This document shows, in pieces, positions 7,577-58,525 of a DNA stretch of 64,000 nucleotides (position 1 is the stretch's first letter; each line of letters starts with the position of its first letter). Both the position numbers and the translations under genes were made by a program. This DNA is from an uncultured Eubacteriales bacterium (GTDB lineage: Bacteria > Bacillota > Clostridia > Christensenellales > UBA1242): assembly GCA_948607205.1 (NCBI GenBank), contig CAPERS010000002.1:68767-132766 (forward strand), written 5' to 3'. The notes below the pieces were generated by a model that was given only the letters and a program-made list of their open reading frames with translations, was not told the origin of the DNA and did no database searches.

Positions 7577-10500
7577 CTAAACAAGTTCAAACCCAGCAAG
7601 ACCAACTTCAAATACGTCGTTCTGCTGTGGCAAATTTTGTGCAAATTCAAACAATGTTACTTGCATTGGAAGGCCGTTATTCATCTCTTTTTCATATCTG
7701 AAACCTTCATTAAAATCAGTTTCACTACCGTAGGCTTTTTGAGAAATGGTGTTTGCAAGACTCAAAGAAAGATAGCTTGCCACAATTGTTGGCTGTGAGC
7801 CAAGTCCATAAATTGAGTTGAAAGTTGTAGGCAAAATGTTAACTCGTGCAACAGATGAGCAATATTCCACAAGCATTCTAGTGCCAACATTGTTTCTGCC
7901 AACAATTCCACCATAATGAACATTGCTTGTGCTAAGATTTACAATACTATAATCTGCACTTGAAATGATTGAAAGATTGTCAGTCACCTCCCCAACAATT
8001 CCTCCAATTGATTGACTTGCGATTGTTGATTCCAAATTTCCATAATTAATGCAATTTTCAATAGTTCCTTTGCTAGTTGCGCCAGCAATTCCGCCTATTT
8101 GGCTATTTTCTTGCACTCCAATATCTTTGATTGTTCCATAATTTATACAACCAATAATTTTATCATTCTTTTCTTCGCCAAAAAACACGCCACAAATTCC
8201 ACCCTTGGAAGTTCGACCGCTGATTTCTGCACGATTTACACAATTTTCAATAATATTGCCTTCATATGCGTTACCAACAATTCCGCCAGCGTTCCAAACA
8301 GAATAAACATTTCCAGTAACTAAACAATTTCTTACTGTCGTATTTTTCGCAAGACCAATAATTCCACCTGCACCATTGTTTGCGTTTATTGAAACATTGA
8401 GAAGAATTACATCTTGAATTATTGCATTTGAGGTTTTACTGAATAGACCAATATAATCATAAGTAGAATCATAATTGCCTACCACAACTTTATTTAATGT
8501 TTTTAAACTTGAAATTTTTTTATTGTTTCCTTCAAACTTGCCTTTAAAATATGTATTATTTTTTCCAATTGGCATCCAATATCTGCCTGCAAGGTCAATA
8601 TTGTTTGCAAGACGGATTGTTTTGCCTTCAAAATTTTCTCCTTCCCAGTTCATATATGCCACTTTTCCAAGTTCTTCTGCGGTTGAAATGAGATATGCTC
8701 CGCTGGCGTCGGTTGTAAGTTCGACATCTTTGCCGACTGCCGACCATGTCTCTAACCATACTGCATAAAGTGTGACATTTTCTGTGCCTGTTGTTAGGTT
8801 GGATACGCTTGCTCCGTCGCTAAATGTTATTTTTGATGCATCATATTCTGAAATCGGATTTTGTTTTGTTCTGCTCCAACCTAGGAATATATATCCGTTT
8901 CTTGTGAATGAGTTTGCTGTTAAATTTTTGTTATAACCATATGTATGTTTTTGTGCAGACATTGTTCCAGTTCCACCGTTTGCGTCAAACACTATGTTGT
9001 ATTCGTTTGCATCCCAGAGCGCAACGAGTGAGGCGTCACCAACACCGGTTGTGTAAGTTGTTGCTTGACTGCCATTTTCGCTGACATTTTTTCCTGTCGC
9101 ATCATAAGTTCCAACATAGGCAACCTGCCACTTGACAGGATTTTCAGAACTTCCGCTTGGACCTTCAATATAGAAAAAGCCAATAGTGTCAAAATTTCCG
9201 TCTGAGCCACACACCCACTTAAAAACATATGTCTTCCAAGTTCCTGTTCCAATGTTATTTGAAATCCAAGTGTCATGCGTATTATTGCCATGCGCATTAT
9301 ATGCAGGCATCAATTTATATCCTTCTGGAATTTTCGCATGGATAACTGAATAGAAAACTCCGTTTGCTTTTGACTGAAAACGGTTTGAAAAACCATAACC
9401 CCAACCGCAAGTGGCAAGGTTTGTTATTTCAAGAACACGTTTTGAATCTGGCAAATTTAAATCAGAAGGTTTCGAAATTAAATTAAACACAACATTTCCA
9501 TTACCCGAATTGTCATAAATTTCTATATTGTTATCTGACCAATCAAAGAAACCGTCTGTGGTTTTGTCATGTGTTTGACCAAAGGTTGAGAAAGTTCCAT
9601 TTCCATTTTTTGCAACCCAGCCTTTGAAGGTATAACCCGGACGTGTTGGAACGCCTAGTTGAATGTTTGTTCCTTTATCTTGCGTTATTGAGGTTGCCCC
9701 CGAATAAGTTCCACCATTTGCATTCACCGTCACTTTTGACTGAGAAACGAAATACAGATTTACAGTAACACTTTGTGCTGGCACATTAAATTTAATACTG
9801 TCTTGATTTGAATTGCTATTTTCTGATGTTGTGACAGAATAATGCGAATATCGAACACTGCTTGAATATCTAATATTCCACACATCGATAGTTTCACCAT
9901 ATCCCACTTGCTGATAAAAATCAGCTACGTTACTTTTATCAGTCGAAGAGCCAATATTGACATTAAATTGTAGTCCTGAAAGAGAATTATCAGATTGATT
10001 GACTCCGTCAACATAATGATTTACATCAACATAATAGTTGTTTCTTGTCCAACGTGCTGTGATGGTTTCATTGCTTGCTGAGGTTTTATATGTTGAACTA
10101 TAAATTCTAGTTCCACTTGAATTATACCAGCCAGCAAATGTGTAACCTTCTCTTGTTGGTGTTGGGCAATCGTAGTAATTTCCATAAGTCGTGCTATATG
10201 TTGACGAACTACTGCTCCCAATTTTTCCGCCATTGGCATCATATGTCACATTAAATTTTCTTGGCGCAAGAATAATGACATTATAATAGTTTTTTGTTTC
10301 GTTTCCACTAAACTTCAATGTGTGGGTCATGTTCTTTGCAGCCGATTGTGATGAATCTGTTTTCCAAAAACTTGAAACTTGACTTGCAGTAACATTCCCA
10401 ATATCAGTTGACGTTAAAGGATTAATTAAACAATATGAAAGATATGCTTCAAAACCAGCATTTTTACTTGAAATTGAATAATTTACATCATAGTAAGAAT

Positions 10501-10909
10501 GTTTATCGCCACCAATAAAAGTCAATTTCATGTAAACATTACCTTTTATCCAATTTGTTCCATTCCCAGATGCTGACGTTCCCGTGCAACCACCAGCACC
10601 AGTGAAATTGGTAAATGTTATGCTCGTGTTTGCAAGGCTTGTTGAGGTATAGCCATCTTCGCTTACATATTTGCCAATGTTATAATCAACATTTTTAAGT
10701 TGAAAGGTGTCCGTAGATTTTACTACTGGACTTTTCAAACAAACCAATGCAAGACTATAATTATACGTCACATTAGAATAAGCGTCTGCTGTTTGGTCTT
10801 TGTTTGAATTATTTTTTATTGAATCAGAAAAAGTAAAAAACATGCCTGCTGAAAAGCATACCGCAAAGACAAAAGAAACTGTTAACAAAATCTTATGAAT
10901 TCTTTTCAT
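7577..10909 (-). CDS. Large membrane-anchored surface protein with Listeria-Bacteroides (Flg_new-type) repeats and a GLUG-like repeat array
   Basis: 1110 aa. N-terminal signal/anchor helix. Three DANGG...GYTF(A/K)GW or GYIFLGW repeats. C-terminal third has repeated GGI(I/V/A/C)G ... NC(I/V)N units. Paralogue of 54887-58300. Confidence 0.8.
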   Translation of the reverse strand: MKRIHKILLTVSFVFAVCFSAGMFFTFSDSIKNNSNKDQTADAYSNVTYNYSLALVCLKSPVVKSTDTFQLKNVDYNIGKYVSEDGYTSTSLANTSITFTNFTGAGGCTGTSASGNGTNWIKGNVYMKLTFIGGDKHSYYDVNYSISSKNAGFEAYLSYCLINPLTSTDIGNVTASQVSSFWKTDSSQSAAKNMTHTLKFSGNETKNYYNVIILAPRKFNVTYDANGGKIGSSSSSTYSTTYGNYYDCPTPTREGYTFAGWYNSSGTRIYSSTYKTSASNETITARWTRNNYYVDVNHYVDGVNQSDNSLSGLQFNVNIGSSTDKSNVADFYQQVGYGETIDVWNIRYSSSVRYSHYSVTTSENSNSNQDSIKFNVPAQSVTVNLYFVSQSKVTVNANGGTYSGATSITQDKGTNIQLGVPTRPGYTFKGWVAKNGNGTFSTFGQTHDKTTDGFFDWSDNNIEIYDNSGNGNVVFNLISKPSDLNLPDSKRVLEITNLATCGWGYGFSNRFQSKANGVFYSVIHAKIPEGYKLMPAYNAHGNNTHDTWISNNIGTGTWKTYVFKWVCGSDGNFDTIGFFYIEGPSGSSENPVKWQVAYVGTYDATGKNVSENGSQATTYTTGVGDASLVALWDANEYNIVFDANGGTGTMSAQKHTYGYNKNLTANSFTRNGYIFLGWSRTKQNPISEYDASKITFSDGASVSNLTTGTENVTLYAVWLETWSAVGKDVELTTDASGAYLISTAEELGKVAYMNWEGENFEGKTIRLANNIDLAGRYWMPIGKNNTYFKGKFEGNNKKISSLKTLNKVVVGNYDSTYDYIGLFSKTSNAIIQDVILLNVSINANNGAGGIIGLAKNTTVRNCLVTGNVYSVWNAGGIVGNAYEGNIIENCVNRAEISGRTSKGGICGVFFGEEKNDKIIGCINYGTIKDIGVQENSQIGGIAGATSKGTIENCINYGNLESTIASQSIGGIVGEVTDNLSIISSADYSIVNLSTSNVHYGGIVGRNNVGTRMLVEYCSSVARVNILPTTFNSIYGLGSQPTIVASYLSLSLANTISQKAYGSETDFNEGFRYEKEMNNGLPMQVTLFEFAQNLPQQNDVFEVGLAGFELV

Positions 10910-10941
10910 ACTTTATCCTTTTTATATATTTTATTTAAATA

Positions 10942-10973
10942 ATTATACCTCAAAATCCCCCCCCCCATGTCAA
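10942..10973 (-). promoter_or_regulatory. Sigma-A-type promoter with a G10 tract in the spacer (TTGACA-N20-TATAAT)
   Basis: Minus strand reads TTGACA T G10 ATTTTGAGG TATAAT. -35 at 10968-10973, -10 at 10942-10947, homopolymer at 10957-10966. The -10 box lies 32 nt upstream of the ATG. Confidence 0.6.
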
Positions 10974-11164
10974 CAAAATCCGACAGAAAACTCACGCCAT
11001 TTTTGCGTTTCCATTTGGAAAGCGTGGCTATGCTGAGAGTTATTTTTAAATATATATTATTATACTCAAAAATTGAGTAAATACAAAATAAAAAATAAGG
11101 AAAACACATATTTTTCCTGTGTTTTCCTTAAATTAAAGAGATAAAATTCAAATTATATTTTTAT

Positions 11165-15765: not shown

Positions 15766-18273
15766 TTAAACCAAATATTGACTTATCGAAATAAATTGTT
15801 TTTTGATAATTTCATTTCCAGTTGCAAGTCTGTCAGAAAGTGGAAGTTTCTTTGTTTCAAGTGGAAGAATTTTTAAGCCAAAGTCGACAGCAAGCACAAT
15901 GTTTCCATCACCTGAGCATGCGAAAACAACATCTTTTCCGCCGTTTGCAAAATTGATATATTTCACGCCTTTGCGATAGCGTTGAGCAAGTGGGAAATCT
16001 TTGGCACTTATTCTTTTCACATAACCGTTGTTTGTGAGAAGAACAATTTGGCTGAAATCATTTTGACCAGCAAAAATAACTTTATCTCCGTCATCCATAT
16101 TTATTCCACGCACACCGCCAGAAATTCTGCCTTGAACTGGAATATCCGACTTGTCAAAATTGAGGCTCATTCCATTTTTTGTGAGCATCAAAATGCTTCC
16201 GGCTCTTTCAATTTCAGCGCCGATAACCTCGTCACCGTCGCCGAGTTTGCAAACTTGATAATATGACTTTGTTGTTATCATATCTTCGATTTTTGAGCGT
16301 TTAACAAGTCCATCACGAGTGTAAACAAGCACATTTGTGTTGGCAGTTGGTAAGAAGAATGAAACAATCTTTTCGTTTGACGACGCAGTTTTATCAACAC
16401 TTAAAAGGCTGTTGCCTTTATCGCGCCATTTGCATTCTGGAAGGTTTGCCACAGTGGTTTTAACGCAATTGCCTTTGCTTGTTATGATAAGAATAGTATC
16501 CTTGCTTGTCACATTCATAATCTTTGTGTGAACATCTGTTATTGTTGAATTTTCACCAAGCACTTTTTGCGAAGATGCATAGTTTCTTGGGCTAACTTTC
16601 TTTATCGTTCCACCAGCAGTGAGAGCAACAACAAAATTCTTCCTTTCGTCATCTGCAACTTCCTCTTTCATTTCAGCCAATTTGATATCAGCAGTTTTTG
16701 CAATTTGGCTTCTGCGAGGATTTGAGTATGCTTTTTTGATTTCGGTTATTTCTTTCTTAACAATGTCAAGTTGAGCGCGCTTTGACGCCAAGATTCGCTC
16801 ATATTCAGCGATTCTTTCTTTGAGAGAGGCAAGTTCCTCCTCAAGTTTGGTCACTTCGAGGTTGACAAGCCTTGCAAGACGCATATCAAGAATGGCTTGC
16901 GCTTGACGCTCAGAAAGGTCAAATCTTGCACGCAATTTTTGTTTAGCCTCACTTGTTGTTGCTGATTTTTTGATGATTTTGATAACTTCATCAATGTTCT
17001 TTATTGCAACAAGAAGTCCTTCAACTATATGAGCGCGTTCTCTTGCAGCGTTAAGTTCAAACTTGGTTCTTCTGACGATAATTTCACGCTGATATGCGGT
17101 ATAGTAGGAAATAATCTCCATAAGCCCAAGTTGCTTTGGTTTTCCGCCTGCGATTGCAACCATATTTATTGCGTATGATACTTGCAAGTTGGTTGCTTTA
17201 AAGAGGTATTCTAGAATTTTCTTTGGATTTGCGTCTTTTTTAAGCCTTATCACCGCACGCATACCATTTCTGTCTGACTCATCACGGATTTCAGCGATTG
17301 CTGAGAGTTTGTCTTTGTTGGTTTCTTTAAGTTCGGCAATTTTTTGAAGCAGGTTTGCCTTGTTCACTTGATAAGGTATCTCTGTGATAATCAGGCTGAC
17401 CTTATCGCCAACAGTTTCAGTTCTGACTTTAGAGCGAATGATAATTTTTCCTTTGCCTGTTTCATAGGCTTGTCTGAGCCCTTCATCAAAGATAAGTTCA
17501 CCGCCTGTTGGAAAGTCTGGCGCTTTGATAATTTTCATCATTTCGTCAAGTTTTATATGCGGATTATCAATATATGCTACAACACCGTCAATAACTTCGC
17601 CGAGGTTGTGTGGTGGAATGTTTGTTGCAACGCCCACTGCAATACCAGACGCGCCGTTTACGAGAAGGTTTGGAAAGCGACCTGGAAGCATGTCCGGCTC
17701 TTTCAAAGTATCATCAAAGTTAAGGCTCCACCTCACAGTGTCTTTTTCAAGGTCGCGAGTGAGTTCAAGCGCAAGAGGTGCAAGGCGCGCTTCGGTGTAA
17801 CGCATAGCCGCTGGGCTATCGCCGTCAACCGAACCAAAGTTTCCATGACCGTCAACAAGAGGCGCTCGGAGTGAAAAATCTTGCGCCATTCTTGTCATCG
17901 CATCATAAACTGAACTGTCGCCGTGAGGATGATATTTACCAAGGCAGTCCCCAACAATTCTGGCTGACTTTCTGTATGGCTTGTCTGGCGTTACGCCAAG
18001 TTCAATCATTGAATAAAGTATACGCCTCTGAACAGGTTTAAGACCGTCCTCAACCCTTGGGAGCGCTCTGTCAAGCACCACGCATTCGGTGTAAGGAATC
18101 ATTGAGTCATGCAAAACCTCATCAAGAGATCTGAAAATAATTCCCTTGCTTTTGCCGTTGTCGCCACCATTATCATCATCTTTTGACTTTGGAATTTCAA
18201 GTTCTTTGACCTCTTCCGCTTTGCCCAAAAGATTTTCATAACTTATCTGTCCTTCTCTCTCTTCTTCTTGCAC
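15766..18273 (-). CDS. parC: Type IIA topoisomerase subunit A (ParC-like)
   Basis: 835 aa with a GTG start behind [19 protein letters not shown] (the Q is ParC-like), [10 protein letters not shown] with the catalytic Tyr. No GyrA-box (QRRGGKG) seen. About 45-aa acidic N-terminal extension. Confidence 0.7.
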
Positions 18274-18388: not shown

Positions 18389-20344
18389 TTATTTATTTTC
18401 TTTATAATTTTTAAAGAAATCGTCTTCGCGGTCGAAGTTGGCATGCTCGCCAATATATTTCTTTCGCGCTTCGATATCGTCACCCATAAGCGTGGTCACA
18501 ATCTTTTCAGCCTCTGCAACATCTTCAATTGAAACTTGGATGAGGTTACGCTTTGCTGGGTCCATTGTTGTTTCCCAAAGTTGTTCTGGGTTCATTTCGC
18601 CAAGACCTTTATAGCGTTGAAGTGAATAGTTCCTGCCTGCTCTTGCAATCGCCTGTGGAAGTTCGGCGTCTGAATAGACATATTCAACATAATCTTTCTT
18701 ATACACTTTATAAAGTGGTGGCATACCGCAGAACACATGCCCGTCAGTTATAAGCGGACGCATATATCTGAAAAAGAATGTCAGCAGGATTGCTCTGATA
18801 TGCGCACCGTCTTGGTCGGCATCGGAAAGAATGATGACCTTGTTGTAGCGCAGGCTTGAAAGGTCGAAATCTTCGCCTATTCCTGTGTCAAGTGCCGAGA
18901 TAATTGTTCTGATTTCTTCGTTTGCAAGCACTTGGTCTATTCTCTTCTTTTCTGCATTAAGAGGTTTTCCTCTAAGTGGCAAGATTGCCTGAAATTTTCG
19001 GTCACGGCCTTGCTTTGCGCTACCGCCCGCAGAATCTCCTTCCACAATGAAAAGTTCGCAGATATCTCGATTTTTGGAAGTGGCCGCAGAAAGTTTTCCA
19101 ACAAGGTTAAAATTTTCAGCCGAGTTTTTGGCGCGAGTGAGTTCTTTTGCTTTTTTTGCCGCCTCTCTCACCTTTGCTGCGCCTTTGGCTTTGTTGACAA
19201 TGATTTCAGCAACAGTTGTATTTTTTTTGTTTTCAAAAAATTTAGTCAGTTCTGTCGTCGTCAAGCTTTCAACAAGCGTTTTGGCTTCTGGGTTTCCAAG
19301 CTTAGTTTTTGTCTGGCCTTCAAACTGGACATTTGTCATTTTGACATTGATTACAACATTGATTCCTTCACGGAAATCCTCGCCCAAAAGGTTTGCCTCT
19401 TTTTCTTTGAGGATATTGTTTGCACGAGCAAAGTTATTCATAACTTTTGTGAACGCACTTTTGAAGCCCATTTCATGAGTTCCGCCCTCAATGGTTGGAA
19501 TGTTATTGACGAATGAAAAAGAGTTTTCAGTGTAAGTGTCAGTGTAAATGAAAGCAACTTCGAGGTCAAAGTTTTTGTCTTCCGCGTGGAAATAGATAGG
19601 ATTTGAATACATCTTACTTTTGCCTTCAACGAGATAAGAAACAAAATCAGAAATTCCACCTTCATAGTGATATTCCTCTCTTTTTTCTGTCCCCTCTTCT
19701 TCAATAATAATTTTCAGACCTTTGTTTAGAAATGCAAGTTCGCGAGCACGAACAGCGATTGTTTCAAAGTTAAGTCTATTTTCCCCAAACATATCAGAGT
19801 CTGGAAGAAAGGTAACCCTTGTTCCTGTCTTCTTTGTCGAGCCAATTTTTTTAAGTGGAGCAACAGGGATACCGCTATGCATCTTACCATTATCATCTCT
19901 ATACGAATGGAATTTTATATAATACTCGCTTCCGCCCTTAAAAACAGATACTTCGCACCACTTTGAAAGAGCATTTGTGACAGATGCACCCACGCCGTGA
20001 AGACCGCCAGAGAATTTATAGTTTTCGTTATCAAACTTTCCGCCTGCGTGAAGAGTTGTGTAAACAACTTCAACACCCGACTTGTGAAGTGTTGGATGTT
20101 CGTCAACAGGGATTCCACGACCGTTATCTTCAACAGTTGCACTGCCGTCAGCATGAAGAGTTATCGAAATCGTGTCACCATGACCATTTGAGATTTCGTC
20201 AATTGAGTTATCAACAATTTCCCAAAGGATGTGATGAAGACCTTTAACGCCAGTTGTTCCGATATACATTCCCGGTCTGAGCCTGACTGCGTCAAGTCCT
20301 TCAAGAACAACAATATCTTTTGAGTCATAATTTTTTCCTGCCAT
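18389..20344 (-). CDS. parE: Type IIA topoisomerase subunit B (ParE-like)
   Basis: Start at ATG 20344 behind GGAGAGG. GLDAVRLRPGMYIG, GHKL ATPase and Toprim (EGDSAGG, PLRGK) motifs. Confidence 0.8.
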   Translation of the reverse strand: MAGKNYDSKDIVVLEGLDAVRLRPGMYIGTTGVKGLHHILWEIVDNSIDEISNGHGDTISITLHADGSATVEDNGRGIPVDEHPTLHKSGVEVVYTTLHAGGKFDNENYKFSGGLHGVGASVTNALSKWCEVSVFKGGSEYYIKFHSYRDDNGKMHSGIPVAPLKKIGSTKKTGTRVTFLPDSDMFGENRLNFETIAVRARELAFLNKGLKIIIEEEGTEKREEYHYEGGISDFVSYLVEGKSKMYSNPIYFHAEDKNFDLEVAFIYTDTYTENSFSFVNNIPTIEGGTHEMGFKSAFTKVMNNFARANNILKEKEANLLGEDFREGINVVINVKMTNVQFEGQTKTKLGNPEAKTLVESLTTTELTKFFENKKNTTVAEIIVNKAKGAAKVREAAKKAKELTRAKNSAENFNLVGKLSAATSKNRDICELFIVEGDSAGGSAKQGRDRKFQAILPLRGKPLNAEKKRIDQVLANEEIRTIISALDTGIGEDFDLSSLRYNKVIILSDADQDGAHIRAILLTFFFRYMRPLITDGHVFCGMPPLYKVYKKDYVEYVYSDAELPQAIARAGRNYSLQRYKGLGEMNPEQLWETTMDPAKRNLIQVSIEDVAEAEKIVTTLMGDDIEARKKYIGEHANFDREDDFFKNYKENK

Positions 20345-20561
20345 TTTCCTCTCCAAATTTGATATTAATTATTTATATTATATCAAACTTTAATCACATT
20401 TCCAAAAGATTTTAAGGCTTAATTAGAGTAAAATTTTTAATTAAATATTTGCATATTTATTATAATTAACGTATATTTATTCATCAATTAAATTTTAGTT
20501 TTTAGATATATTTTTTTAAATTTAAGTATATAATTATATATCATTTTTAAGGAGAGAGTTT

Positions 20562-34325: not shown

Positions 34326-35678
34326 ATGACTGTTAAAGAAAAATTTATTGATTTTTTTAATTTTTCAGATGAAGAATGGCTAAAACTTTCCAAAAAAATC
34401 AACAAAGTTTCAGAAGATACGGCTGAAAAGATGCTGGCGCAGGCTCAATTTTTGAAAGAACGATATAATTTCTCTAATCAAGAAATCAAAAAAATTGTCT
34501 TGGGTCAAGGGTTAATATTAAAACTAACTAAGAAAAATATAATAGCAAAAGAAAAGTTTTATTGTTCTTCTTTTAAATTAAAAAGAACAGATTTCAAACT
34601 GCTTATTTTAAGACACCCTAACATTTTAACTTATAGCACTGATAAAGTTACTTCTTTAACACAATTCATCACAAGTCATTTTGGTCTTAAGCTTGACGAA
34701 GCAAAAAAATCTATTTTAAACAACACAAAACTTCTCGGATTTAACACTGACATATTTGAAGAGCGTTCAAAATATCTTATTTCAAAGTTTGGTTTTAAGC
34801 AATGGCAATTGAAAAACATTTGGAAAAACCTGTCTTCAATTTACATTTATAAAATTGATACTTTGGAAGAAAAGTTCAATTGGCTGGTAAACAAATTTAA
34901 CACATCAGAGGATAAATTCAAAGACTGCATTCGACTTAACCCTCAATTTTTGTTCTATACACCAGAGTTTATTGAACAGAAATGCAACTTCATAAAATCA
35001 ACATTAAAAATTGACACCAATGTTTTAAATGAAAAAATAAATTCATTTGCAAGAGTTTTTGCCCTAAAAGAAGAAACTATTTTATCAAAAATTGAATTTT
35101 ATAAGTCTACTTTCAATTTTTCAGAAGATGAAATTTGCAAACTTTTGACAGCAAATCCAACTTTGTTACATTACGACAAGAAAACAGTCGAACACAAAAT
35201 TGCATTCTATCAAGATAAATTCGGCTTAAGCATTGAACAATTAAAATTGGCGTTTCTTCAAAAAGCGCAACTTTTTGATTTAAATGAAGAATCAGTAGTA
35301 GAAAAAATAATGGCAATTTTGGGCACCAGATTCACAATCGATGATATCGTCGAAAACATTGCTTTACTCACCTCAGGTCCTGCTGACAGTTTCAAACTTC
35401 GTTATGCAATTTGTGCAAACGCAAATGTCAGCAAAGAATCATTCTTGCACAAGAAGATGTATATGCTGAACGAAAGCAAACTTTATGCCAGAGTTAAATT
35501 TCTTAAAGAATCCAAATATCCAAACTTTGCTTGTATAGGTTACTCAAAAAAAGTTTGGGAAAATCAATTCCATATTTCAGACGAAGAACTTCTCAAAAAG
35601 TATATACTTACTGATGATGAAAAGAATGCTCAAATTAAAGAGTTTGAAAACAATCTCACAGATATAGAATCAAGTTAA
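34326..35678 (+). CDS. Helical-repeat protein with about nine 36-aa mTERF-like repeats
   Basis: 450 aa, GGAG RBS. Repeating pattern ..K..F(L/Y)...F(G/N)(L/F)S...(I/L)K.....P.(L/I)L.Y......., e.g. FNFSEDEICKLLTANPTLLHYDKKTVEHKIAFYQDKFGLSIEQLK. Confidence 0.65.
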   Translation: MTVKEKFIDFFNFSDEEWLKLSKKINKVSEDTAEKMLAQAQFLKERYNFSNQEIKKIVLGQGLILKLTKKNIIAKEKFYCSSFKLKRTDFKLLILRHPNILTYSTDKVTSLTQFITSHFGLKLDEAKKSILNNTKLLGFNTDIFEERSKYLISKFGFKQWQLKNIWKNLSSIYIYKIDTLEEKFNWLVNKFNTSEDKFKDCIRLNPQFLFYTPEFIEQKCNFIKSTLKIDTNVLNEKINSFARVFALKEETILSKIEFYKSTFNFSEDEICKLLTANPTLLHYDKKTVEHKIAFYQDKFGLSIEQLKLAFLQKAQLFDLNEESVVEKIMAILGTRFTIDDIVENIALLTSGPADSFKLRYAICANANVSKESFLHKKMYMLNESKLYARVKFLKESKYPNFACIGYSKKVWENQFHISDEELLKKYILTDDEKNAQIKEFENNLTDIESS

Positions 35679-37681: not shown

Positions 37682-37757
37682 GGACTGCTAGCTCAGTTGG
37701 TAGAGCATCTGACTCTTAATCAGAGGGTCCGGGGTTCGAGCCCCCGGCAGTCCACCA
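37682..37757 (+). tRNA. tRNA-Lys (anticodon CTT), CCA encoded
   Basis: GGACTGC/GCAGTCC acceptor stem, GCTC/GAGC D-stem, anticodon loop CTCTTAA, CGGGG-TTCGAGC-CCCCG T-arm. 76 nt. Confidence 0.95.
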
Positions 37758-44273: not shown

Positions 44274-44885
44274 TTACCTTTTCAAAAATCTAATAAACGC
44301 TTTGATGTTACGCTTTTGGCGTGCAAATTCAGAATCTTCGCCATGTCCGCTGTGGCAAGTTTCAAACTCAAGCGCGTCAAGTTTTTCAAGAGAGCAAATT
44401 ATTTCTTCTTTGCTTGAGCCATAAAGGTCAGTTCTGCCAATGCCGTTGTCAAAAAGTGTGTCACCAGCAAAAAGATGATTGTTTAAGAGAAAGCAAACTG
44501 AGGATTTGCAATGTCCGGGTGTGGCAAAAAATTGGATTTCAAAATCTTCAAAATTTAGTTTTCCATCTTCTTTAATAAATTCAAAATTGTCGAAAGAATC
44601 GAGTTTAAAGCTCTCGCCATAGTTTTTGGCAGGGTCAATAAGCTCATCCTTGGCAAACTCACTTGCATAAATTTTGCAGTCAAACTTTTTTGCATAATCA
44701 AGAGCGAACATCGCGTGGTCATAATGTCCGTGCGTCAAAAGCACAGCGGTGACTTTTAAGTTCCCGACTTCTTTTTCAATAAGCGCAGTTTCAACGCCAG
44801 CGTCAATAATCACGCAATCCTTGCCATTTATGCATATAAAAACATTTGATTCAAGATATTGACTTTTTAAATTTTTGATTTCCAT
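44274..44885 (-). CDS. MBL-fold metallo-hydrolase (glyoxalase II-like)
   Basis: Start moved to ATG 44885 (MEIKNLK...) because the longer ORF reads through tRNA-Trp. THGHYDH motif, and later H/D ligands (PGHC, HSGHG). Confidence 0.8.
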   Translation of the reverse strand: MEIKNLKSQYLESNVFICINGKDCVIIDAGVETALIEKEVGNLKVTAVLLTHGHYDHAMFALDYAKKFDCKIYASEFAKDELIDPAKNYGESFKLDSFDNFEFIKEDGKLNFEDFEIQFFATPGHCKSSVCFLLNNHLFAGDTLFDNGIGRTDLYGSSKEEIICSLEKLDALEFETCHSGHGEDSEFARQKRNIKAFIRFLKR

Positions 44886-45008
44886 GAAAGTATTATATAA
44901 CTTTTTAACAAAATTTGAAAACTTTTTTTGCATTTGTAAACAAAAAATCAGCATATTTTGTTGACTTAGACGTGGGTTTATAGTAAAATAATGATGTTGA
45001 AAATATAT

Positions 45009-45082
45009 AGGGGTGTAGTTCATCGGTAGAATGAGAGTCTCCAAAACTCCAGAGGAGGGTTCGATTCCTTCCACCCCTGCCA
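45009..45082 (+). tRNA. tRNA-Trp (anticodon CCA), CCA encoded
   Basis: AGGGGTG/CACCCCT acceptor stem, anticodon loop CTCCAAA, GAGGG-TTCGATT-CCTTC T-arm. 74 nt. Confidence 0.95.
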
Positions 45083-45169
45083 AAACGCGACCAAACGAAA
45101 TGCTTCACTAAGCATTTTGTCGCAACTATAAAATGGAATTAAAAAATCACCGATTTCTATCGGTGTTTT

Positions 45170-47895: not shown

Positions 47896-48243
47896 TTAAA
47901 AGCCTAGAGAAATTAAAATTGCGCGGTTGACCTCTTTCATTTTAAGGTCGTCAAGAGTTGTCACTTTTTCACGCAGACGACGTTTGTCGAGCGTGCGGAT
48001 TTGTTCAAGAAGAGCAACTGAGTTTTTGGGCAGGTTATATTTTTCTGCCGAAAGGTCAATGTGCGTTGGAAGTTTTGCTTTGCCAAGCTGGCTTGTGATG
48101 GCTGAAACGATAACAGTTGGCGAATATTTGTTGCCGACATCGTTTTGGATTATTAGGACTGGACGAACGCCACCCTGTTCACTTCCAACAACAGGGCTTA
48201 GGTCAGCATAATAGATTTCACCTCTTTTTATTTGCTCGTCCAT
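47896..48243 (-). CDS. mazF: MazF/EndoA-type mRNA interferase toxin
   Basis: [48 protein letters not shown] is near-canonical EndoA/PemK. Start taken at ATG 48243. Confidence 0.9.
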
Positions 48244-48460
48244 ACTTCCTTTCAAATTCCATTAGGTCTTCAAGTTCAGCGCGTTCCATTTCTTCAATCT
48301 CGCTGTAAACTGAAAGAATATCACGCGCATTTCCCTCTACTTGCATATTATGCCAAGCACTTTGAAAAGTTGACATGGTGCTTTGGCGCAAAATGTCATT
48401 TTGTGCAGTTTCATTCTGCTTTGCAAGTTTTTCGAGTTCTTTTTTTAGTTGACTTTTCAT
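48218..48460 (-). CDS. Putative cognate antitoxin (no RHH/AbrB signature), 80 aa
   Basis: ATG 48460 behind GGGAGA. The stop overlaps the mazF start by about 26 nt. Acidic C-terminal helix [20 protein letters not shown]. Confidence 0.5.
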
Positions 48461-48569: not shown

Positions 48570-48597
48570 TTGACAAATCCCCCCCCCGATTTATAAT
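48570..48597 (+). promoter_or_regulatory. Promoter TTGACA-N16-TATAAT with a C9 tract in the spacer
   Basis: -35 at 48570-75, C9 at 48579-87, -10 at 48592-97. AAGGAG RBS and ATG 48629 follow. Confidence 0.6.
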
Positions 48598-48628: not shown

Positions 48629-49723
48629 ATGACAGAGGAAGAAATTAAGGAATTAATCGCCCAACATTATAAAGAAAAAAGTGAATCACGTGTAGCCGAA
48701 GAAATTCCTGCAGAAATATCAGAAAAAATTGCAATAGGTAATACACTTATTTATCCAGAAAGACAACGAGAATGGGAAAAGTATGTTAAAGCAAATAATG
48801 GTAGCGAACTTGATGTTGCTATTCCTGTTATGGAAGCTCTTGAAAATGGTGCCTCTTTTGAAGAAGCCAGCAAAATTATGGAAAATACAAACTCAATAGA
48901 ATCATTTGCTATGGCAATGAGTATTATCGCTAAATTCTCTAAAAAAGGTGTTGAGTTTTTTAGATATGTATCAAAAGATAAAGCACTTGACCCAGAAAAC
49001 GAAAAATTCTTACAAAAAATTTCTCAAGAAAATGAACACATGATAATGAGTAATGCTGAATGTATAAATGATACTGGCTATCTGCTTGCTGGACTTGACC
49101 TTGACAGAATCACTCAACTTCTTGAAGATTTAAAAAATGAGAATAAAAATGTTTATATTAATGGTTACGGAACAAAACTTTACTCTATGCTTGACAATCG
49201 CGATTCATGTTATAAAAAAGTTACAGGTAAAACTTATGAAGAGTTTAAAAATCAAAATTTAGAAAATTCGACGCCAAATAGCATATATGAAAATAAATTG
49301 GGAATAATCAAAAATAATCAAAAATATATGGAAGGTGCTATTGAAAGTATCTACAAAAAAAGCTTGAACTTAATCTATCCACAAAGAAAAGATGAATGGG
49401 AAAAGAAATGTGAAGAAAGTTTTAAATCCCCTACTATTGGTAAAGATTTTAGTATGGCTGTTGCAATAATGGAAGGTATTGAAAGAAATGAACCATTCGA
49501 AGACCTTTATGGTTATCATGTTGAAGAAAAAGAATATTATTTTAACAAGGCATTAAATTTAATAAAAAACTTTGCAAAAAAGGGTGTGGAGTTTTATAAA
49601 TATGCTCAAGCACAAAAAAATAAACAAATTGACGAAGAGGAATTAAAAAGAATTTCACAAGAAAATGAACAGTTCGAAAAACAACTTCGTCTTAATGGTG
49701 AGAAAGACGCGAATATGGAATAA
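48629..49723 (+). CDS. 364-aa cytoplasmic protein made of two homologous halves, function unknown
   Basis: Repeat 1 IYPERQREWEKY...AKFSKKGVEFFRY...LQKISQENEHM and repeat 2 IYPQRKDEWEKK...KNFAKKGVEFYKY...LKRISQENEQF. No signal peptide. Confidence 0.6.
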   Translation: MTEEEIKELIAQHYKEKSESRVAEEIPAEISEKIAIGNTLIYPERQREWEKYVKANNGSELDVAIPVMEALENGASFEEASKIMENTNSIESFAMAMSIIAKFSKKGVEFFRYVSKDKALDPENEKFLQKISQENEHMIMSNAECINDTGYLLAGLDLDRITQLLEDLKNENKNVYINGYGTKLYSMLDNRDSCYKKVTGKTYEEFKNQNLENSTPNSIYENKLGIIKNNQKYMEGAIESIYKKSLNLIYPQRKDEWEKKCEESFKSPTIGKDFSMAVAIMEGIERNEPFEDLYGYHVEEKEYYFNKALNLIKNFAKKGVEFYKYAQAQKNKQIDEEELKRISQENEQFEKQLRLNGEKDANME

Positions 49724-54886: not shown

Positions 54887-57800
54887 TTAAATTATCTCAA
54901 ACCCAGCAAGACCAACCGAAAGCACATCGCTCTGCTGTGGGATTTGACTCGCGTATTCAAACAAACCAACCTGCATTGGAAGACCGTTATTCATCTCTTT
55001 TTCATATCTAAAACCTTCGTTGAAATCTTCGGCATTTCCATAAGCACGCTTTCTCTCTTGATTGCCAACTATCATGCTATAGTAACTTGCCTTGATAAAC
55101 GGAGTTTTACTTCCTCCAAAAATAGCGCCCGAACTGTTTGAAATTTCACCTGTTGACGAGCAATATTCAAGTTCACATTCTGCCCAAATGACACCGACAA
55201 TTCCACTCAGATTTAAACATTCATTATCAACATGGGTGACAAATCCATAGTTTGCCGACGAAATTATTCTTGTTGAGCCATCATTGCAAAGCGCAACGAT
55301 TCCGCCCATTCCACCAACAGTCACTGTTGTTTGAATATTTCCATAATTTATGCAATTTTCAATGTTGTTTCCTGCACTTATTCCAACAATTCCTCCAAAC
55401 CAATAATCATTCCTTCCAAAGTCATTATTTTGAGAAAGAAGTCCAAAATTTATGCAGTTTTTTATTGTGCTATCACTTGCCAAAGCGACAATTCCACCTT
55501 GATACCCGCCAACTATTTCTGCTCTATTCACGCAGTTTTCAACAAGTGAATTTCCAGTTATATGGTCAACAATGCCTGCCGAATGTCTATTAGACTTGAT
55601 TTTTCCTGACAAAACTTGACAATTTCTTATCTGTGATGAGTTGCAAAGTGATGCAATTCCTGCACCTCGGTCACTTGTGTCAATTGATACATTGCTCAAA
55701 ATAACATTCTCAATCTTCGCATTTTCTATTGTGCCAAAAAGTGCTCCCCAAACCGCATATCGCCCAAAGTTTTGTGTTGTAAGGCCATTAATTTTTTTAT
55801 CACATCCATCGAAAGTTCCACTGAATTTTCCGGTTTCGCTAATTGGCATCCAATATTTGCCAGCAAGGTCAATATTGTTTGTCAATTTAACTGTTTCACC
55901 ACTGAAATCATGGCCCTCAAGAGCCATATATGATAACTTTCCAAGTTCTTCTGCACTCGAAATGAGATATGCACCGCTGGCGTCTTGTTTTAAAGTCACA
56001 CTTGCACCAGCTGACGCCCAAGTTTCAAGCCATACTGCATAAAGTGTGACATTTTCTGTGCTTGTTGTTAAATTTGAAACACTTGCTCCGTCGGTATATG
56101 TTATTTTTGACGTGTCATATTCTGAAATTGGATTTTGTTTTGTTCTGCTCCAACCTAGGAATATATATCCGTTTCTTGTGAATGAGTTTGCTGTTAAATT
56201 TTTGTTATAACCATATGTATGTTTTTGTGATGGCATTGTTCCGCTTCCGCCATTGGCGTCAAACACAACGTTATATTCATTCGCATCCCAAAGGGCGACA
56301 AGTTCAACATCAAGATAGCCAAAAGTGTAAGTTGTTTGACCAATTCCACTACCGCTGACATCAAGACCTGTAGCGTCGAAAGTGCCAAGATATGCAACCT
56401 GCCAAACGAGAGGTTTTTCTGCTGTTGGCGCTGGTCCAGTTGAAAGATTAAAGAAACCTATTGTTGAAAAACTGCCAGTTGAACCGCAAACCCATTTATA
56501 TATGTAAGTTTTCCAAGTCCCAGTTCCTTTGTTGTCAGTAAGCCAACTATCATTACATTCATTTCCATGCGCATTCGCTTGGGCGTGAATTGTGTAACCT
56601 TCGGGAATTTTCGCGTGAATAATCTAATAATAAACTCCATTTGGCTTTGAATCAAAACAGTTATGAAATCCGCCATAGCCCGGGCTTGCCTCCCCCACTG
56701 TTGAAATTTCAAGCACTTTCTTAGAGCGTGGCAATTTGAGGTCATCAGGTTTATCAACAATGTTTAGCCTAACATTTCCGTTGTTTGAATTGTTATATAC
56801 ATCTGTGATGTTATATGAATTATCATAAAAGCCGTCAGTCATGACGTAATGGAATTTTCCAAAACTATCCAAACTGCCATCACCATGACTTGAGACCCAG
56901 CCTTTAAAGGTATAACCTGGACGCGTTGGCATAGTATATATTTTTTGTGTTGAGCCATAAATGTGACCAGAAGAAGTTTCAGTTTCCATTCCGTTAACCG
57001 CCCCACCATTTGCGTAACAAGTTATAGAGGCAAACTTTTCAGTCGTGAGATATGGATAGCCTTCGTTGATTTCTGACTTTTGTGAAAAATATGAGTTCCA
57101 CTTAGAGTCTGACTTCCAAGAATATGAAGTTCCGTTCACAACAAACGAACTTCCTGTAAAACAATCCCAATTCCTGAATGCATCAACAATGCCAGAAATA
57201 AAATGGTTGGTTTCACCCAAGCATTCATTGCTATCAATTTTATCGAAGCCCAAGCCTCTATCTGAATAGTTGTAACTATAAGCACTATAATCTGCGTTTT
57301 TATTAATAACATTCGCAACAATTGCTCCAGTGCTTACTGCTGAACTAGAGTTATTTCCAACATTAAAATTGTTTGACACAATCTGTAAATTGCTAACAGA
57401 GCCAAATACACCACCAAGATGAAACAATCTTCCACCAGTAAAATTACCAGCATTATAATTATGATTAAAACTTGTAAGATATGATGGTTCTGATGACGAA
57501 CTGCCTACAACACCCCCAATAATCACCATGTTAAATTCTTCATAATTGAAATTTATATCTCCAAAATTATAACAATATGTAACAAGCATCGTTATCATAG
57601 GTATGATAGGCGAAGGACCACTATAGCCATTTTCACAAGACATAGTTCCTACAATTCCGCCAACCGCAGCAAAAACAGACTGAACTTCTATATCAACAAA
57701 ATTGGCACATCCAGTTATCATGGAATTGATTGCATAACCACAAATTGCTCCTCCAAATTGAGAAGTTGCGCCATCAATAACATTAACATTAATTTTTCCT

Positions 57801-58300
57801 GTTCGTATAACAATTCCGCGAAGGGTTGCGCTGGTTACATAGCCAAACAATCCACAATATGAAATATTTTCTACTACTGGAGCTGAAGTGACTTGATGAT
57901 TTATATAAAGACCTAAAATCGAATAACCATTCCCATTAAATAAACCCTGAAATGAAGAATCTTTAGTTCCAATTGAATCCCAATAATAATTCCCCAAGTC
58001 GATATTTTTGGTTTGTTCAAAATACTTTCCACTTGACCAACCATCAGTTTTTGTTTGCTCTCTCACCCACACAAGATTTTCTGCGCTTGCTATCTTATAA
58101 GGCTCACCACTTGTTCCGTCACCTGTTGGCTTGACCGCGCTTGAACTTGGCCAAAGAGAATTGTTTTTTGGAGTTTCAATTGAAACACCATATGTAACAT
58201 TTTGGTTTATTTCAGAATTAGATGAAATATAAAAAGTAACGCCAAACGCCAGCGAACAAATGCTTATTAAACAAAAAATTGAAGATATTATCTTTTTCAC
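54887..58300 (-). pseudogene. Paralogous surface-protein gene (1137 codons) interrupted by one in-frame TAG at 56624-56626
   Basis: ORFs 56624-58300 and 54887-56266 share one frame, and I found no other stop between them. Translation across the gap (..NGVYY*IIHAKIPEGY..) aligns with ..NGVFYSVIHAKIPEGY.. of 7577-10909. GTG start behind AAGGAG. Confidence 0.75.
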
Positions 58301-58323: not shown

Positions 58324-58354
58324 ATTATACCTCAAAATCCCCCCCCCTAGTCAA
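58324..58354 (-). promoter_or_regulatory. Sigma-A-type promoter with a G9 tract in the spacer (TTGACT-N19-TATAAT)
   Basis: Minus strand reads TTGACT A G9 ATTTTGAGG TATAAT. -35 at 58349-54, -10 at 58324-29, tract at 58339-47. Confidence 0.6.
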
Positions 58355-58525
58355 CTAAATCCGACAGGAAAGATACGCTATTTTTGCGTTTCCGTTTAGA
58401 AAGAAGGGCTATGAAGGTTAATTTGGTTTTATATCAATTATTATACTCAAAAATTGCGTTTATACCAAACGAAAAATGCAAATAAAATGGTTTGAAATTT
58501 ATAGTCAGTGTGATATAATAAAAAC

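What the first reader, a model, noticed from the sequence alone, without database searches (positions are those of the whole stretch)
10942..10973. G10 homopolymer inside the promoter spacer of the 1110-aa surface-protein gene (predicted slipped-strand ON/OFF switch)
On the coding (minus) strand the 5' region reads TTGACA-T-GGGGGGGGGG-ATTTTGAGG-TATAAT. The -10 box lies 32 nt before ATG 10909.

Both hexamers are consensus SigA boxes, but the spacer is 20 nt, which is 2-3 nt too long. As sequenced the promoter should therefore be weak or OFF, and G7-G8 would restore a 17-18 nt spacer.

A 10-nt G/C run is very unexpected in DNA that is about one-third GC. The only three G/C runs of 9 nt or more that I can find in the 64 kb all lie between a -35 and a -10 box (see also 58324-58354 and 48570-48597).

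Homopolymer tracts in promoter spacers are the classic transcriptional phase-variation mechanism (Neisseria porA/opc, Mycoplasma vlp-type loci). I am not aware of it being described for this Flg_new/GLUG-type surface-protein family in low-GC Firmicutes.
Basis: partly seen in the sequence, partly recalled or inferred. Interest (0 to 1): 0.8.

Follow-up and report, generated by a model that had tools for sequence, protein, structure and literature searches.

The report
Variable poly-G tracts inside promoter spacers
An uncultured low-GC gut-type Firmicute keeps runs of 8-10 G (or C) exactly between the -35 and -10 boxes of a few promoters, including two for large surface proteins. These runs are the only places where otherwise identical genomes differ in length, which is the signature of a classic slipped-strand expression switch in a lineage where it has not been described.

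Summary
On the minus strand, 10942-10973 reads TTGACA-T-G10-ATTTTGAGG-TATAAT. The spacer is 20 nt and the -10 box ends 32 nt before ATG 10909 of a 1110-aa Flg_new/GLUG protein.

The window has only three G/C runs of 6 nt or more (10, 9 and 9 nt; about 0.007 runs of 9+ expected). All three lie between a TTGAC(A) and a TATAAT.

Comparative data support the switch idea. In ten comparisons of near-identical assemblies (86 kb aligned, 4 SNPs), all five indels fall in these tracts.
- Locus 1 is G10, G9 or G9 in the window's species and G8 or G9 in a sister species, giving spacers of 18-20 nt.
- Locus 3 is G9 or G10.
- A fourth tract in the sister species is C8 or C9.

Ordinary promoters with the same -10 context have 16-18 nt spacers in 88% of 114 cases.

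The two surface-protein loci share a conserved cassette of about 150 bp. It holds an upstream promoter-like P1, two dyad 15-mers, the -35 box, the G tract and the -10 box. Tract-independent transcription and extra regulation therefore remain possible.

Transcriptional effect, reversibility and within-population heterogeneity are untested. Verdict: a new member of a known kind (porA / tp0126 / vlp-type promoter-spacer phase variation), of moderate interest.

The parts
10957..10966 (-). G10 homopolymer (C10 on the + strand), the variable element of locus 1
   Evidence: Length varies: G10 in the window, G9 in GCA_948664835.1 and JGI 3300038382, and G8 or G9 in the sister species.
10968..10973 (-). 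-35 hexamer TTGACA of promoter P2
   Evidence: TTGAC is conserved in all cassette copies.
10942..10947 (-). -10 hexamer TATAAT of P2, preceded by ATTTTGAGG
   Evidence: The same 15-mer, ATTTTGAGGTATAAT, serves as the -10 context of 113 other promoter-like sites in other species, mostly with 17-nt spacers.
10916..10921 (-). Ribosome-binding site AAAGGA, 6 nt before ATG 10909
   Evidence: Read.
7577..10909 (-). Regulated gene: 1110-aa Flg_new/GLUG repeat protein with an N-terminal hydrophobic signal or anchor. Mosaic divergence from the sister-species orthologue.
10942..11090 (-). Conserved ~150-bp promoter cassette (P1, two dyads, -35, G tract, -10), shared with locus 3, with the sister-species orthologue and with a third species (L019)
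11059..11086 (-). Upstream promoter-like element P1: TTGTAT-16 nt-TATAAT
   Evidence: Read. The locus-3 counterpart, TTGGTA-17-TATAAT, is called by the promoter scan at 10 of 12 matches.
11064..11078 (.). Dyad 15-mer A (ACTCAATTTTTGAGT), lying inside the P1 spacer
10994..11008 (.). Dyad 15-mer B (ACGCAAAAATGGCGT), ending 20 nt upstream of the P2 -35 box. A candidate operator.
   Evidence: The pattern gives 6 matches against 0.47 expected, and all are in the two cassettes.
58324..58354 (-). Locus 3 promoter: TTGACT-A-G9-ATTTTGAGG-TATAAT (19-nt spacer); tract at 58339-58347
   Evidence: The tract is G10 in GCA_948586605.1, and G9 in GCA_948877975.1 and ERR4096668.
54887..58300 (-). Locus 3 gene: a 1137-codon paralogue of the 1110-aa protein, interrupted by one in-frame TAG at 56624-56626 (listed as ORFs of 558 aa and 459 aa)
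48570..48597 (+). Locus 2 promoter: TTGACA-AAT-C9-GATT-TATAAT (16-nt spacer); tract at 48579-48587. It has no cassette.
   Evidence: The tract is also C9 in GCA_948664835.1.
48629..49723 (+). Locus 2 gene: 364-aa protein with an internal duplication and no family match, next to a PemK toxin-antitoxin pair

Best explanation
The G10 run is a hypermutable simple-sequence repeat placed in the spacer of a SigA-type promoter.

**Proposed mechanism**
1. Slipped-strand mispairing during replication adds or removes single G:C pairs.
2. Each change alters the distance and the rotational phasing between the consensus -35 (TTGACA) and -10 (TATAAT) boxes.
3. Promoter strength steps accordingly. G7 and G8 (17 and 18 nt) should be strong. 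G9 (19 nt) should be weak. G10 (20 nt, the state in this window) should be weakest or off.
4. The population therefore contains cells that do or do not display the 1110-aa surface protein.

The same device operates independently at a paralogous surface-protein gene (58339-58347) and at an unrelated gene (48579-48587). In the sister species it also operates at a methyltransferase gene. Together these give combinatorial variation.

**Shown:**
- the position of the tracts between consensus hexamers;
- their non-random occurrence;
- length polymorphism confined to the tracts.

**Inferred:**
- that the hexamers are the active promoter;
- that length changes alter transcription;
- that changes are frequent and reversible within a population.
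For: 1. **Anatomy.** Perfect TTGACA and TATAAT boxes lie 20 nt apart, followed by an RBS and the ATG.
2. **Non-randomness.** The only three G/C runs of 6 nt or more in 64 kb are 9-10 nt long, against 0.007 expected, and all lie in TTGAC..TATAAT spacers. In 802 kb of control loci from other species there is no run of 9 or more.
3. **Hypermutability.**
   - Ten comparisons of near-identical assemblies cover 86,131 aligned bp. They show 4 SNPs and 5 indels, and all 5 indels are in the promoter tracts. Five of 11 tract comparisons differ.
   - Of the 7 A/T runs of 8 nt in the L125-L126 comparison, none varies; both G/C tracts do.
   - Alleles: locus 1 is G10/G9/G9, plus G8/G9 in the sister species. 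Locus 3 is G9/G10/G9/G9. The methyltransferase locus is C9 in five assemblies and C8 in two.
4. **Recurrence in unrelated promoter contexts.** Locus 2 and the methyltransferase locus have no cassette but the same -35/tract/-10 layout.
5. **Spacing norm.** Among 114 promoter-like sites with the identical -10 context in species-representative genomes, 74 have a 17-nt spacer and 100 have 16-18 nt.
6. **A natural control.** In a more distant relative, a G9 tract occupies the spacer of TTGATT-18-TACACT upstream of a homologous Flg_new gene (L137). The homologous promoter in another genome (L138) has the non-repetitive AGTGACGGG in its place, and the spacer length is the same.
7. **The target gene fits.** It has a signal or anchor segment and Flg_new repeats, and its divergence from the orthologue is mosaic.
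8. **Assembly behaviour.** Contigs from several assemblies break at or next to the cassette or tract: L002, L003, L019, L121, L127, L132 and L137.
9. **Precedent.** The mechanism is established in N. meningitidis porA and T. pallidum tp0126 (PMC7864442).
Against: - No expression data, TSS or read-level data are available.
- No allele with the optimal 17-nt spacer was seen at the cassette loci. The observed spacers are 18 nt (once), 19 nt (most) and 20 nt, so most populations would be 'low' or 'off', or else the optimum differs from 17.
- A conserved upstream promoter-like element (P1, canonical 16-17 nt spacing) could transcribe the gene regardless of tract length.
- Consensus tract lengths come from short-read metagenome assemblies, where G homopolymers are error-prone.
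- The comparisons share reference sequences and are not fully independent.
- Locus 2 showed no variation in the two assemblies available.
Confidence: 0.72

Rival explanations
1. Activator-dependent long-spacer promoter. The 19-20 nt spacer is the functional design, as in spoIIG-type or MerR-type promoters. A regulator bound to the conserved dyads, or to the TGTCG motif next to the -35 box, compensates for the overlong spacing. The G tract is just a stiff spacer whose ±1 polymorphism is nearly neutral.
For: - Most assemblies carry 19-20 nt spacers at the cassette loci.
- Two conserved dyad 15-mers at a fixed 55-nt separation occur only in the cassettes.
- The block CTGTCG(G)ATTT adjoining the -35 box is conserved in all copies.
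- TGTCGAA-like motifs also lie upstream of the L137 and L138 homologues.
Against: - There is no dyad inside the spacer, which a MerR-type site requires.
- The same tract design recurs at promoters without the cassette and with 15-16 nt spacers.
- A neutral spacer has no reason to be the longest homopolymer in the genome, nor to be built of G:C in 36% G+C DNA.
- L138 shows that the related promoter works with an ordinary 18-nt spacer.
- This rival is compatible with the switch acting on top of regulation, as in nadA (PMC2791445, listed).
Confidence: 0.13
2. RNA-level element. Transcription starts at P1. The conserved 90 nt and the G tract are part of a 5' leader, whose folding (G tract paired with the conserved pyrimidine block AGCC..CTTTC) controls termination, stability or translation. 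The P2 hexamers are then incidental.
For: - P1 is conserved and canonically spaced.
- In minimum-free-energy folds of several copies, the G tract pairs with the upstream CTTTC-rich block.
- An SSR-dependent 5'-UTR mechanism has been reported in Haemophilus influenzae (PMC12721329; seen only as an abstract).
Against: - No Rfam family matches.
- No terminator-like site is predicted.
- There are too few distinct copies to test covariation.
- The P2 hexamers are perfect consensus and invariant in every copy.
- Loci 2 and the methyltransferase locus have tracts between consensus hexamers without any P1 or leader.
- The RBS is not sequestered in the folds.
Confidence: 0.1
3. Artefact. The tract, or its length differences, come from sequencing or assembly errors at G homopolymers.
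For: - All data are short-read metagenome assemblies.
- Contigs often break near the tracts.
Against: - The tracts are present at the same positions in at least 10 assemblies from different sources (NCBI MAGs, ENA, JGI, Logan).
- Unique sequence flanks them on both sides.
- Both alleles recur in several samples (C8 in two, C9 in five).
- Consensus assemblies reflect the majority allele, and A/T runs of 8 nt show no such differences.
Confidence: 0.05

Closest known systems
Neisseria meningitidis porA promoter (poly-G between -35 and -10)
   Same: - A G homopolymer of about 9-11 nt lies in the spacer of a sigma-70-type promoter of a surface-protein gene.
- Tract length sets the -35/-10 distance and hence the level of transcription (as summarised in PMC7864442).
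   Different: - Here the host is a Gram-positive-type, low-GC, uncultured commensal.
- The observed lengths give over-long spacers (18-20 nt) rather than the optimal-to-short spacers of porA.
- The tract sits in a multi-copy cassette with a second promoter-like element and two dyads.
- No expression data exist.
Treponema pallidum tp0126 and tpr gene poly-G promoters
   Same: - Several poly-G tracts of 8 nt or more are spread over one genome, upstream of surface-protein genes.
- The tp0126 tract lies between -35 and -10 and is optimal when the spacer is 17 nt.
- For tprE/G/J, 8 G or fewer is permissive. For tprL, G8 gave more reporter signal than G10 (PMC7864442).
- The same G8-G10 range is seen here.
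   Different: - T. pallidum is 53% G+C, so G runs are less anomalous there.
- In the tpr promoters the tract is not between the hexamers.
- Here all four tracts lie strictly between a -35 and a -10 box.
Mycoplasma hyorhinis vlp promoters (poly-A in the promoter spacer)
   Same: From my own knowledge, not checked here. A family of variable surface-protein genes each carries a conserved promoter region with a homopolymer between -35 and -10. Independent switching of the genes gives combinatorial surface variation.
   Different: - The vlp tracts are poly-A and the proteins are lipoproteins in a wall-less organism.
- Here the tract is poly-G/C in A+T-rich DNA, and the proteins are Flg_new/GLUG repeat proteins.
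Neisseria meningitidis nadA (SSR flanked by NadR operators)
   Same: A repeat tract changes the spacing of promoter elements in a region that also carries operator sites for a repressor (PMC2791445 abstract). This resembles the two dyad 15-mers in the cassette.
   Different: - The nadA repeat is a TAAA tetranucleotide located upstream of the -35 box.
- No regulator has been identified here.

Membership tests
SSR promoter-spacer phase variation (contingency locus; porA / tp0126 / vlp type) | A homopolymeric tract long enough to slip (about 8 nt or more) and anomalous for the genome's composition | tested here: met
   The tract is G10. Only three G/C runs of 6 nt or more exist in 64 kb, all 9-10 nt long, against 0.007 expected.
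SSR promoter-spacer phase variation (contingency locus; porA / tp0126 / vlp type) | The tract lies between the -35 and -10 elements of the promoter of the adjacent gene | tested here: met
   Consensus TTGACA and TATAAT flank the tract, and an RBS and ATG follow within 32 nt. This holds at sequence level only, because the TSS is not mapped.
SSR promoter-spacer phase variation (contingency locus; porA / tp0126 / vlp type) | Tract length is polymorphic among otherwise near-identical genomes | tested here: met
   All 5 indels in 86 kb of near-identical alignments are in the tracts. G8, G9 and G10 alleles were found.
SSR promoter-spacer phase variation (contingency locus; porA / tp0126 / vlp type) | Length heterogeneity within one population, and high-frequency reversible switching | not testable with these tools
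   No reads are available. The only indirect hints are contig breaks at the tracts, and the same alleles recurring on identical backgrounds.
SSR promoter-spacer phase variation (contingency locus; porA / tp0126 / vlp type) | Tract length changes the level of transcription | not testable with these tools
   This is inferred from the spacer rule. 100 of 114 sites with the same -10 context have 16-18 nt spacers.
SSR promoter-spacer phase variation (contingency locus; porA / tp0126 / vlp type) | The regulated product is a surface or host-interaction determinant | tested here: met
   The protein has an N-terminal hydrophobic segment, Flg_new/GLUG repeats, and mosaic hypervariable blocks relative to its orthologue. 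Loci 2 and the methyltransferase locus regulate non-surface genes.
Invertible promoter (inverton) | Inverted repeats flanking the promoter segment, with a site-specific recombinase nearby | tested here: not met
   No conserved flanking inverted repeats were found. The only inverted repeat shared by both loci is the pair of internal dyads. No recombinase was found among the ORFs annotated near the three loci; not every ORF in the window was searched.
MerR-type long-spacer promoter | A 19-20 bp spacer containing the regulator's dyad operator | tested here: not met
   The spacer is 19-20 nt, but it consists of T/A + Gn + ATTTTGAGG with no dyad. The dyads lie upstream of the -35 box.
Known cis-regulatory RNA (Rfam) | A match to a curated covariance model | tested here: not met
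   There is no gathering-score hit in the window other than tmRNA and two tRNAs. The cassette gives only chance-level hits at E of 0.17 or higher.

The most novel reading that the evidence does not exclude
This lineage of uncultured gut-type Firmicutes may carry a genome-wide 'phasome' built solely from poly-G/C tracts placed in promoter spacers.

Its core would be a portable ~150-bp dual-promoter cassette (P1, two operator-like dyads, -35, G tract, -10) that is copied in front of members of a mosaic Flg_new surface-protein family. The cassette would combine a stochastic length switch with conventional regulation by an unknown dyad-binding factor.

If so, it would be a multi-locus contingency system in a non-pathogenic commensal Firmicute, with an architecture not described before.
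Probability: 0.3. Interest if true: 0.6.

Novelty: new member of a known kind. Interest (0 to 1): 0.5.

Why it matters
Multi-locus SSR phase variation is known almost only from pathogens such as Neisseria, Haemophilus, Campylobacter, Helicobacter, Treponema and Mycoplasma. A 2025 review asks whether that restriction is real or a database bias (PMC11868660).

Here an uncultured, A+T-rich commensal-type Firmicute shows at least three or four promoter-spacer tracts with direct comparative evidence of hypermutability. Two of them control large, mosaic surface proteins.

- This points to bet-hedging of surface display in gut Firmicutes by a route other than the invertons usually catalogued from metagenomes.
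- It gives a simple rule for finding such loci in MAGs: look for G/C runs of 8 nt or more between -35 and -10 boxes.
- It warns that such promoters cause contig breaks and consensus ambiguities in assemblies.

Tried and rejected
1. **JGI metagenome scans.** Two cassette patterns gave 0 hits, and a viral-contig scan also gave 0. Yet one JGI contig does carry the cassette (L124). The metagenome collection searched evidently does not include it, or stores it differently.
2. **The single genome-contig scan** used the -10 context and returned mostly ordinary promoters. It was useful as a spacing control, but it found only one further cassette (L019).
3. **Taxonomy.** Cluster look-ups and a GyrA homology search returned no organism names. 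The lineage stays 'uncultured low-GC Firmicute'. L019 is titled 'uncultured Clostridia bacterium'. The window encodes Firmicute-type DnaB_2 and DnaI replication proteins.
4. **A 67-aa ORF (10906-11109, minus strand)** spans the cassette and ends in an ATGA overlap with the main ATG. I rejected it as spurious. It starts inside the groEL terminator hairpin, and the internal ATG is absent from locus 3 and from the sister species, which read TTGACTAG.
5. **Inverton.** Rejected, because there are no flanking inverted repeats.
6. **Riboswitch or known RNA.** Rejected.
7. **G-quadruplex.** A single G run cannot form an intramolecular quadruplex, so I did not pursue this.
8. **The 364-aa protein of locus 2** has no match in Pfam, NCBIfam, PADLOC, PHROGs or PDB.
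9. **An alternative -35 box** at 17 nt from the -10 in the G10 state would be ACATGG, which matches 0 of 6 positions. No hidden well-spaced promoter exists.

Full report
**1. The observation**

On the minus strand, 10973-10942 reads TTGACA-T-GGGGGGGGGG-ATTTTGAGG-TATAAT. The spacer is 20 nt. The -10 box ends 32 nt before ATG 10909, and an AAAGGA ribosome-binding site lies 6 nt before the ATG.

The gene (7577-10909, minus strand, 1110 aa) matches Pfam Flg_new (1.4e-23), Flg_new_2 and Glug and TIGR02543. It begins with a hydrophobic signal or anchor segment.

The window is 35.9% G+C. It contains exactly three G/C runs of 6 nt or more:
- C10 at 10957-10966
- C9 at 48579-48587
- C9 at 58339-58347

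First-order Markov simulations give 2.9 runs of 6 or more, but only 0.007 runs of 9 or more, per window. A/T runs never exceed 8 nt, although the DNA is 64% A+T.

All three G/C runs lie inside TTGAC-N-TATAAT matches. There are 10 such matches in the window against 0.6 expected. The three tract-bearing spacers are 20, 16 and 19 nt, and the other seven are 16-18 nt.

**2. What surrounds the tract**

Loci 1 and 3 share a conserved cassette of about 150 bp. On the coding strand it holds, in order:
- an upstream promoter-like element P1 (TTGTAT-16-TATAAT at 11086-11059; TTGGTA-17-TATAAT at locus 3, which the scanner calls at 10 of 12 matches);
- about 25 variable nucleotides;
- a conserved block: AGCC..CTTTC.AAA.GGAAACGCAAAA...GCGT...CTGTCGGATTT.GTTGAC;
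- the G tract;
- ATTTTGAGGTATAAT.

Conservation stops just after the -10 box. The 5' UTRs and the N-terminal coding sequences of the two genes are unrelated.

The cassette contains two similar dyad 15-mers of the form ACKCAA-N5-GMGT, always 55 nt apart. One lies in the P1 spacer. The other ends 20 nt upstream of the P2 -35 box. The pattern occurs nowhere else in the window (6 matches against 0.47 expected).

No Rfam family matches the cassette. No flanking inverted repeats suggest an inverton.

The locus 3 gene is a paralogue of the 1110-aa protein. The 558-aa ORF continues in frame, after a single TAG (56624-56626), for 578 more codons. The read-through product is 53% identical to the 1110-aa protein over its C-terminal 720 residues.

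Locus 2 has no cassette. On the plus strand, TTGACA-AAT-C9-GATT-TATAAT (16-nt spacer) precedes an RBS and a 364-aa protein. That protein has no family match and lies next to a PemK toxin-antitoxin pair.

**3. Related genomes**

Exact-protein look-ups retrieved the same loci from NCBI MAGs, ENA assemblies, a JGI metagenome and Logan assemblies.

| Locus | Source | Tract |
|---|---|---|
| Locus 1 | window | G10 |
| Locus 1 | GCA_948664835.1 | G9 |
| Locus 1 | JGI 3300038382 | G9 |
| Locus 1, sister species | ERZ14864678 | G8 (18-nt spacer) |
| Locus 1, sister species | ERZ15143663 | G9 |
| Locus 3 | window | G9 |
| Locus 3 | GCA_948586605.1 | G10 |
| Locus 3 | GCA_948877975.1 | G9 |
| Locus 3 | ERR4096668 | G9 |
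| Locus 2 | window and GCA_948664835.1 | C9 in both |

The sister species has a protein 72% identical to the 1110-aa protein, in the same groES-groEL-gene-adh_short synteny.

The sister species has a fourth tract that the window lacks. TTGACA-AGT-C(8/9)-ATGC-TAGTAT lies in front of a 261-aa SAM-dependent methyltransferase between gyrB and gyrA. It is C9 in five assemblies and C8 in two.

A third species (L019, titled 'uncultured Clostridia bacterium') carries the cassette with G10.

**4. Hypermutability**

I aligned every near-identical pair. Over ten comparisons (86,131 aligned bp) there are 4 SNPs and 5 indels. All 5 indels are single-base changes in the promoter tracts.

| Pair | Aligned bp | Mismatches | Indels |
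|---|---|---|---|
| L125 vs L126 | 19,785 | 1 | 2, one in each of the two tracts |
| Window vs L001 | 11,618 | 1 | 1, the locus-1 tract |
| Window vs L004 | 2,494 | 0 | 1, the locus-3 tract |
| L125 vs L129 | 8,047 | 0 | 1, the methyltransferase tract |

- Five of 11 tract comparisons differ, against 4.6e-5 differences per ordinary base. That is a ratio of roughly 10,000.
- None of the seven 8-nt A/T runs in the L125-L126 region differs.
- Contigs from several assemblies end at or next to the cassette or tract. Two independent Logan contigs stop at the same base inside P1 (L002 and L132). L003 starts at the tract. L121 and L127, from one sample, leave the cassette unassembled. This fits a multi-copy cassette, allele mixtures, or both, but it is only a hint.

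**5. Spacing norm and a natural control**

A scan of one genome per species for TTGAC-N(8-18)-ATTTTGAGGTATAAT returned 114 sites, mostly in Clostridia-type MAGs. Spacers were 16 nt in 10, 17 nt in 74, 18 nt in 16, and 19 nt or more in 14. Only L019 carried a G tract.

In 802 kb of those control loci there is no G/C run of 9 nt or more.

Closer relatives lack both the gene and the tract. In GCA_949067325.1 (GyrA 84% identical), groEL abuts adh_short.

A relative with GyrA 78% identical has a G9 run in TTGATT-18-TACACT (TG-extended) upstream of a 1383-aa Flg_new homologue (L137). The homologous promoter in another genome (L138) has AGTGACGGG at the same place, and the spacer is again 18 nt. This shows that a repeat tract can replace ordinary spacer sequence in these promoters.

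**6. Mechanism**

The best-supported reading is the classical one. Replication slippage changes the tract by ±1, which changes -35/-10 spacing and phasing, and so steps promoter strength.

In this window both surface-protein promoters are in predicted low or off states (20 and 19 nt). Locus 2 is in a permissive state (16 nt).

Shown:
- the position of the tracts;
- their non-randomness;
- polymorphism confined to the tracts.

Inferred:
- promoter identity;
- the transcriptional effect;
- reversibility.

Two features complicate a pure ON/OFF model. P1 could provide tract-independent transcription. The dyads suggest an additional regulator, so spacing may also matter relative to an upstream-bound factor (compare nadA, PMC2791445).

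An RNA-level role for a P1-derived leader cannot be excluded. In predicted folds the G tract pairs with the conserved CTTTC block. However, this role is not needed to explain the cassette-free loci.

**7. Comparison with known systems, and novelty**

The closest systems are:
- N. meningitidis porA;
- T. pallidum tp0126 and the tpr genes, where G8 is permissive and G10 is not, and 17 nt is optimal (PMC7864442);
- Mycoplasma hyorhinis vlp, from my own knowledge.

The sequence-level membership criteria are met. The functional criteria could not be tested.

Literature searches found no description of promoter-spacer poly-G switching for Flg_new proteins or for gut Clostridia-type Firmicutes. [quoted passage not shown]

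I rate this a new member of a known kind, with moderate interest.

**8. Seen in passing**

The 1110-aa gene is mosaic relative to its sister-species orthologue. The 5' 700 nt and the 3' 100 nt are 98-100% identical. Two internal blocks are only 45-64% identical. This fits diversifying selection or recombination in a surface protein.

Noticed in passing
window 54887-58300 (-), TAG at 56624-56626: The 558-aa and 459-aa ORFs are one 1137-codon reading frame interrupted by a single in-frame TAG. The read-through product is a paralogue of the 1110-aa protein, 53% identical over the C-terminal 720 aa. So the second poly-G-controlled gene is a pseudogene, a strain-specific nonsense allele, or a read-through case.
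   Followed up: partly
window 10994-11008 and 11064-11078; 58375-58389 and 58445-58459: Two similar dyad-symmetric 15-mers (ACKCAA-N5-GMGT), always 55 nt apart, occur in each cassette and nowhere else in the window (6 matches against 0.47 expected). They look like operator sites for an unidentified dimeric regulator. One overlaps the spacer of the upstream promoter-like element P1.
   Followed up: partly
window 7577-10909 compared with L120 3001-6324: The surface-protein gene is mosaic between sister species. The 5' UTR plus the first ~700 nt, and the last ~100 nt, are 98-100% identical. Blocks at 9221-9518 (~60-64%) and 7769-8530 (~41-57%) are highly divergent, while the flanking housekeeping genes are 87-100% identical.
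   Followed up: partly
L125 9060-9115 (sister species; absent from the window between gyrB 18389-20356 and gyrA 15766-18273): A fourth promoter-spacer tract, TTGACA-AGT-C8/9-ATGC-TAGTAT, lies in front of a 261-aa SAM-dependent methyltransferase. Its best PADLOC hit is mad2 (5e-26). The tract is C9 in five assemblies and C8 in two. The gene is missing from the window's strain but present in a strain whose GyrA is 98% identical (L132).
   Followed up: partly
L137 100-160 and L138 1900-1945: A more distant relative has G9 in the 18-nt spacer of a TG-extended promoter upstream of a 1383-aa Flg_new homologue. The homologous promoter elsewhere has non-repetitive AGTGACGGG of the same length. Both carry repeated TGTCGAA-like motifs upstream, which resemble Spo0A boxes by recall only (untested).
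   Followed up: no
window 48218-48460 (-) and 48629-49723 (+): The C9 tract of locus 2 lies in a 168-nt divergent intergenic region. On one side is a PemK-type toxin-antitoxin operon. On the other is an orphan 364-aa protein made of two ~170-aa internal repeats, with no hit in Pfam, NCBIfam, PADLOC, PHROGs or PDB.
   Followed up: partly
window, whole: The longest A or T run is 8 nt (23 runs of 8, none longer) in DNA that is 64% A+T. So the G/C tracts are the longest homopolymers in the window. Apart from the three tracts there is no G/C run of 6 nt or more, against about 3 expected.
   Followed up: yes
L002 end, L132 end, L003 start, L121 start, L127 end: Independent assemblies break at or beside the cassette, and two Logan contigs end at the identical base inside P1. 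This suggests the cassette is multi-copy in the genome, that the samples hold mixed alleles, or both.
   Followed up: no
window 34326-35678 (+) and 53127-54095 (-): A 450-aa protein matches the mTERF family (4.8e-28), which is mainly known from eukaryotic organelles. A GGGtGRT-family protein (5e-177) is also present. Neither is related to the finding.
   Followed up: no
window 60448-60844 (-), 37682-37754 (+), 45009-45079 (+): A tmRNA gene lies next to smpB and RNase R, and there are two tRNA genes. The tRNA at 45009-45079 overlaps the 5' end of the listed metallo-beta-lactamase-fold ORF 44274-45083, whose true start is therefore probably further downstream.
   Followed up: no
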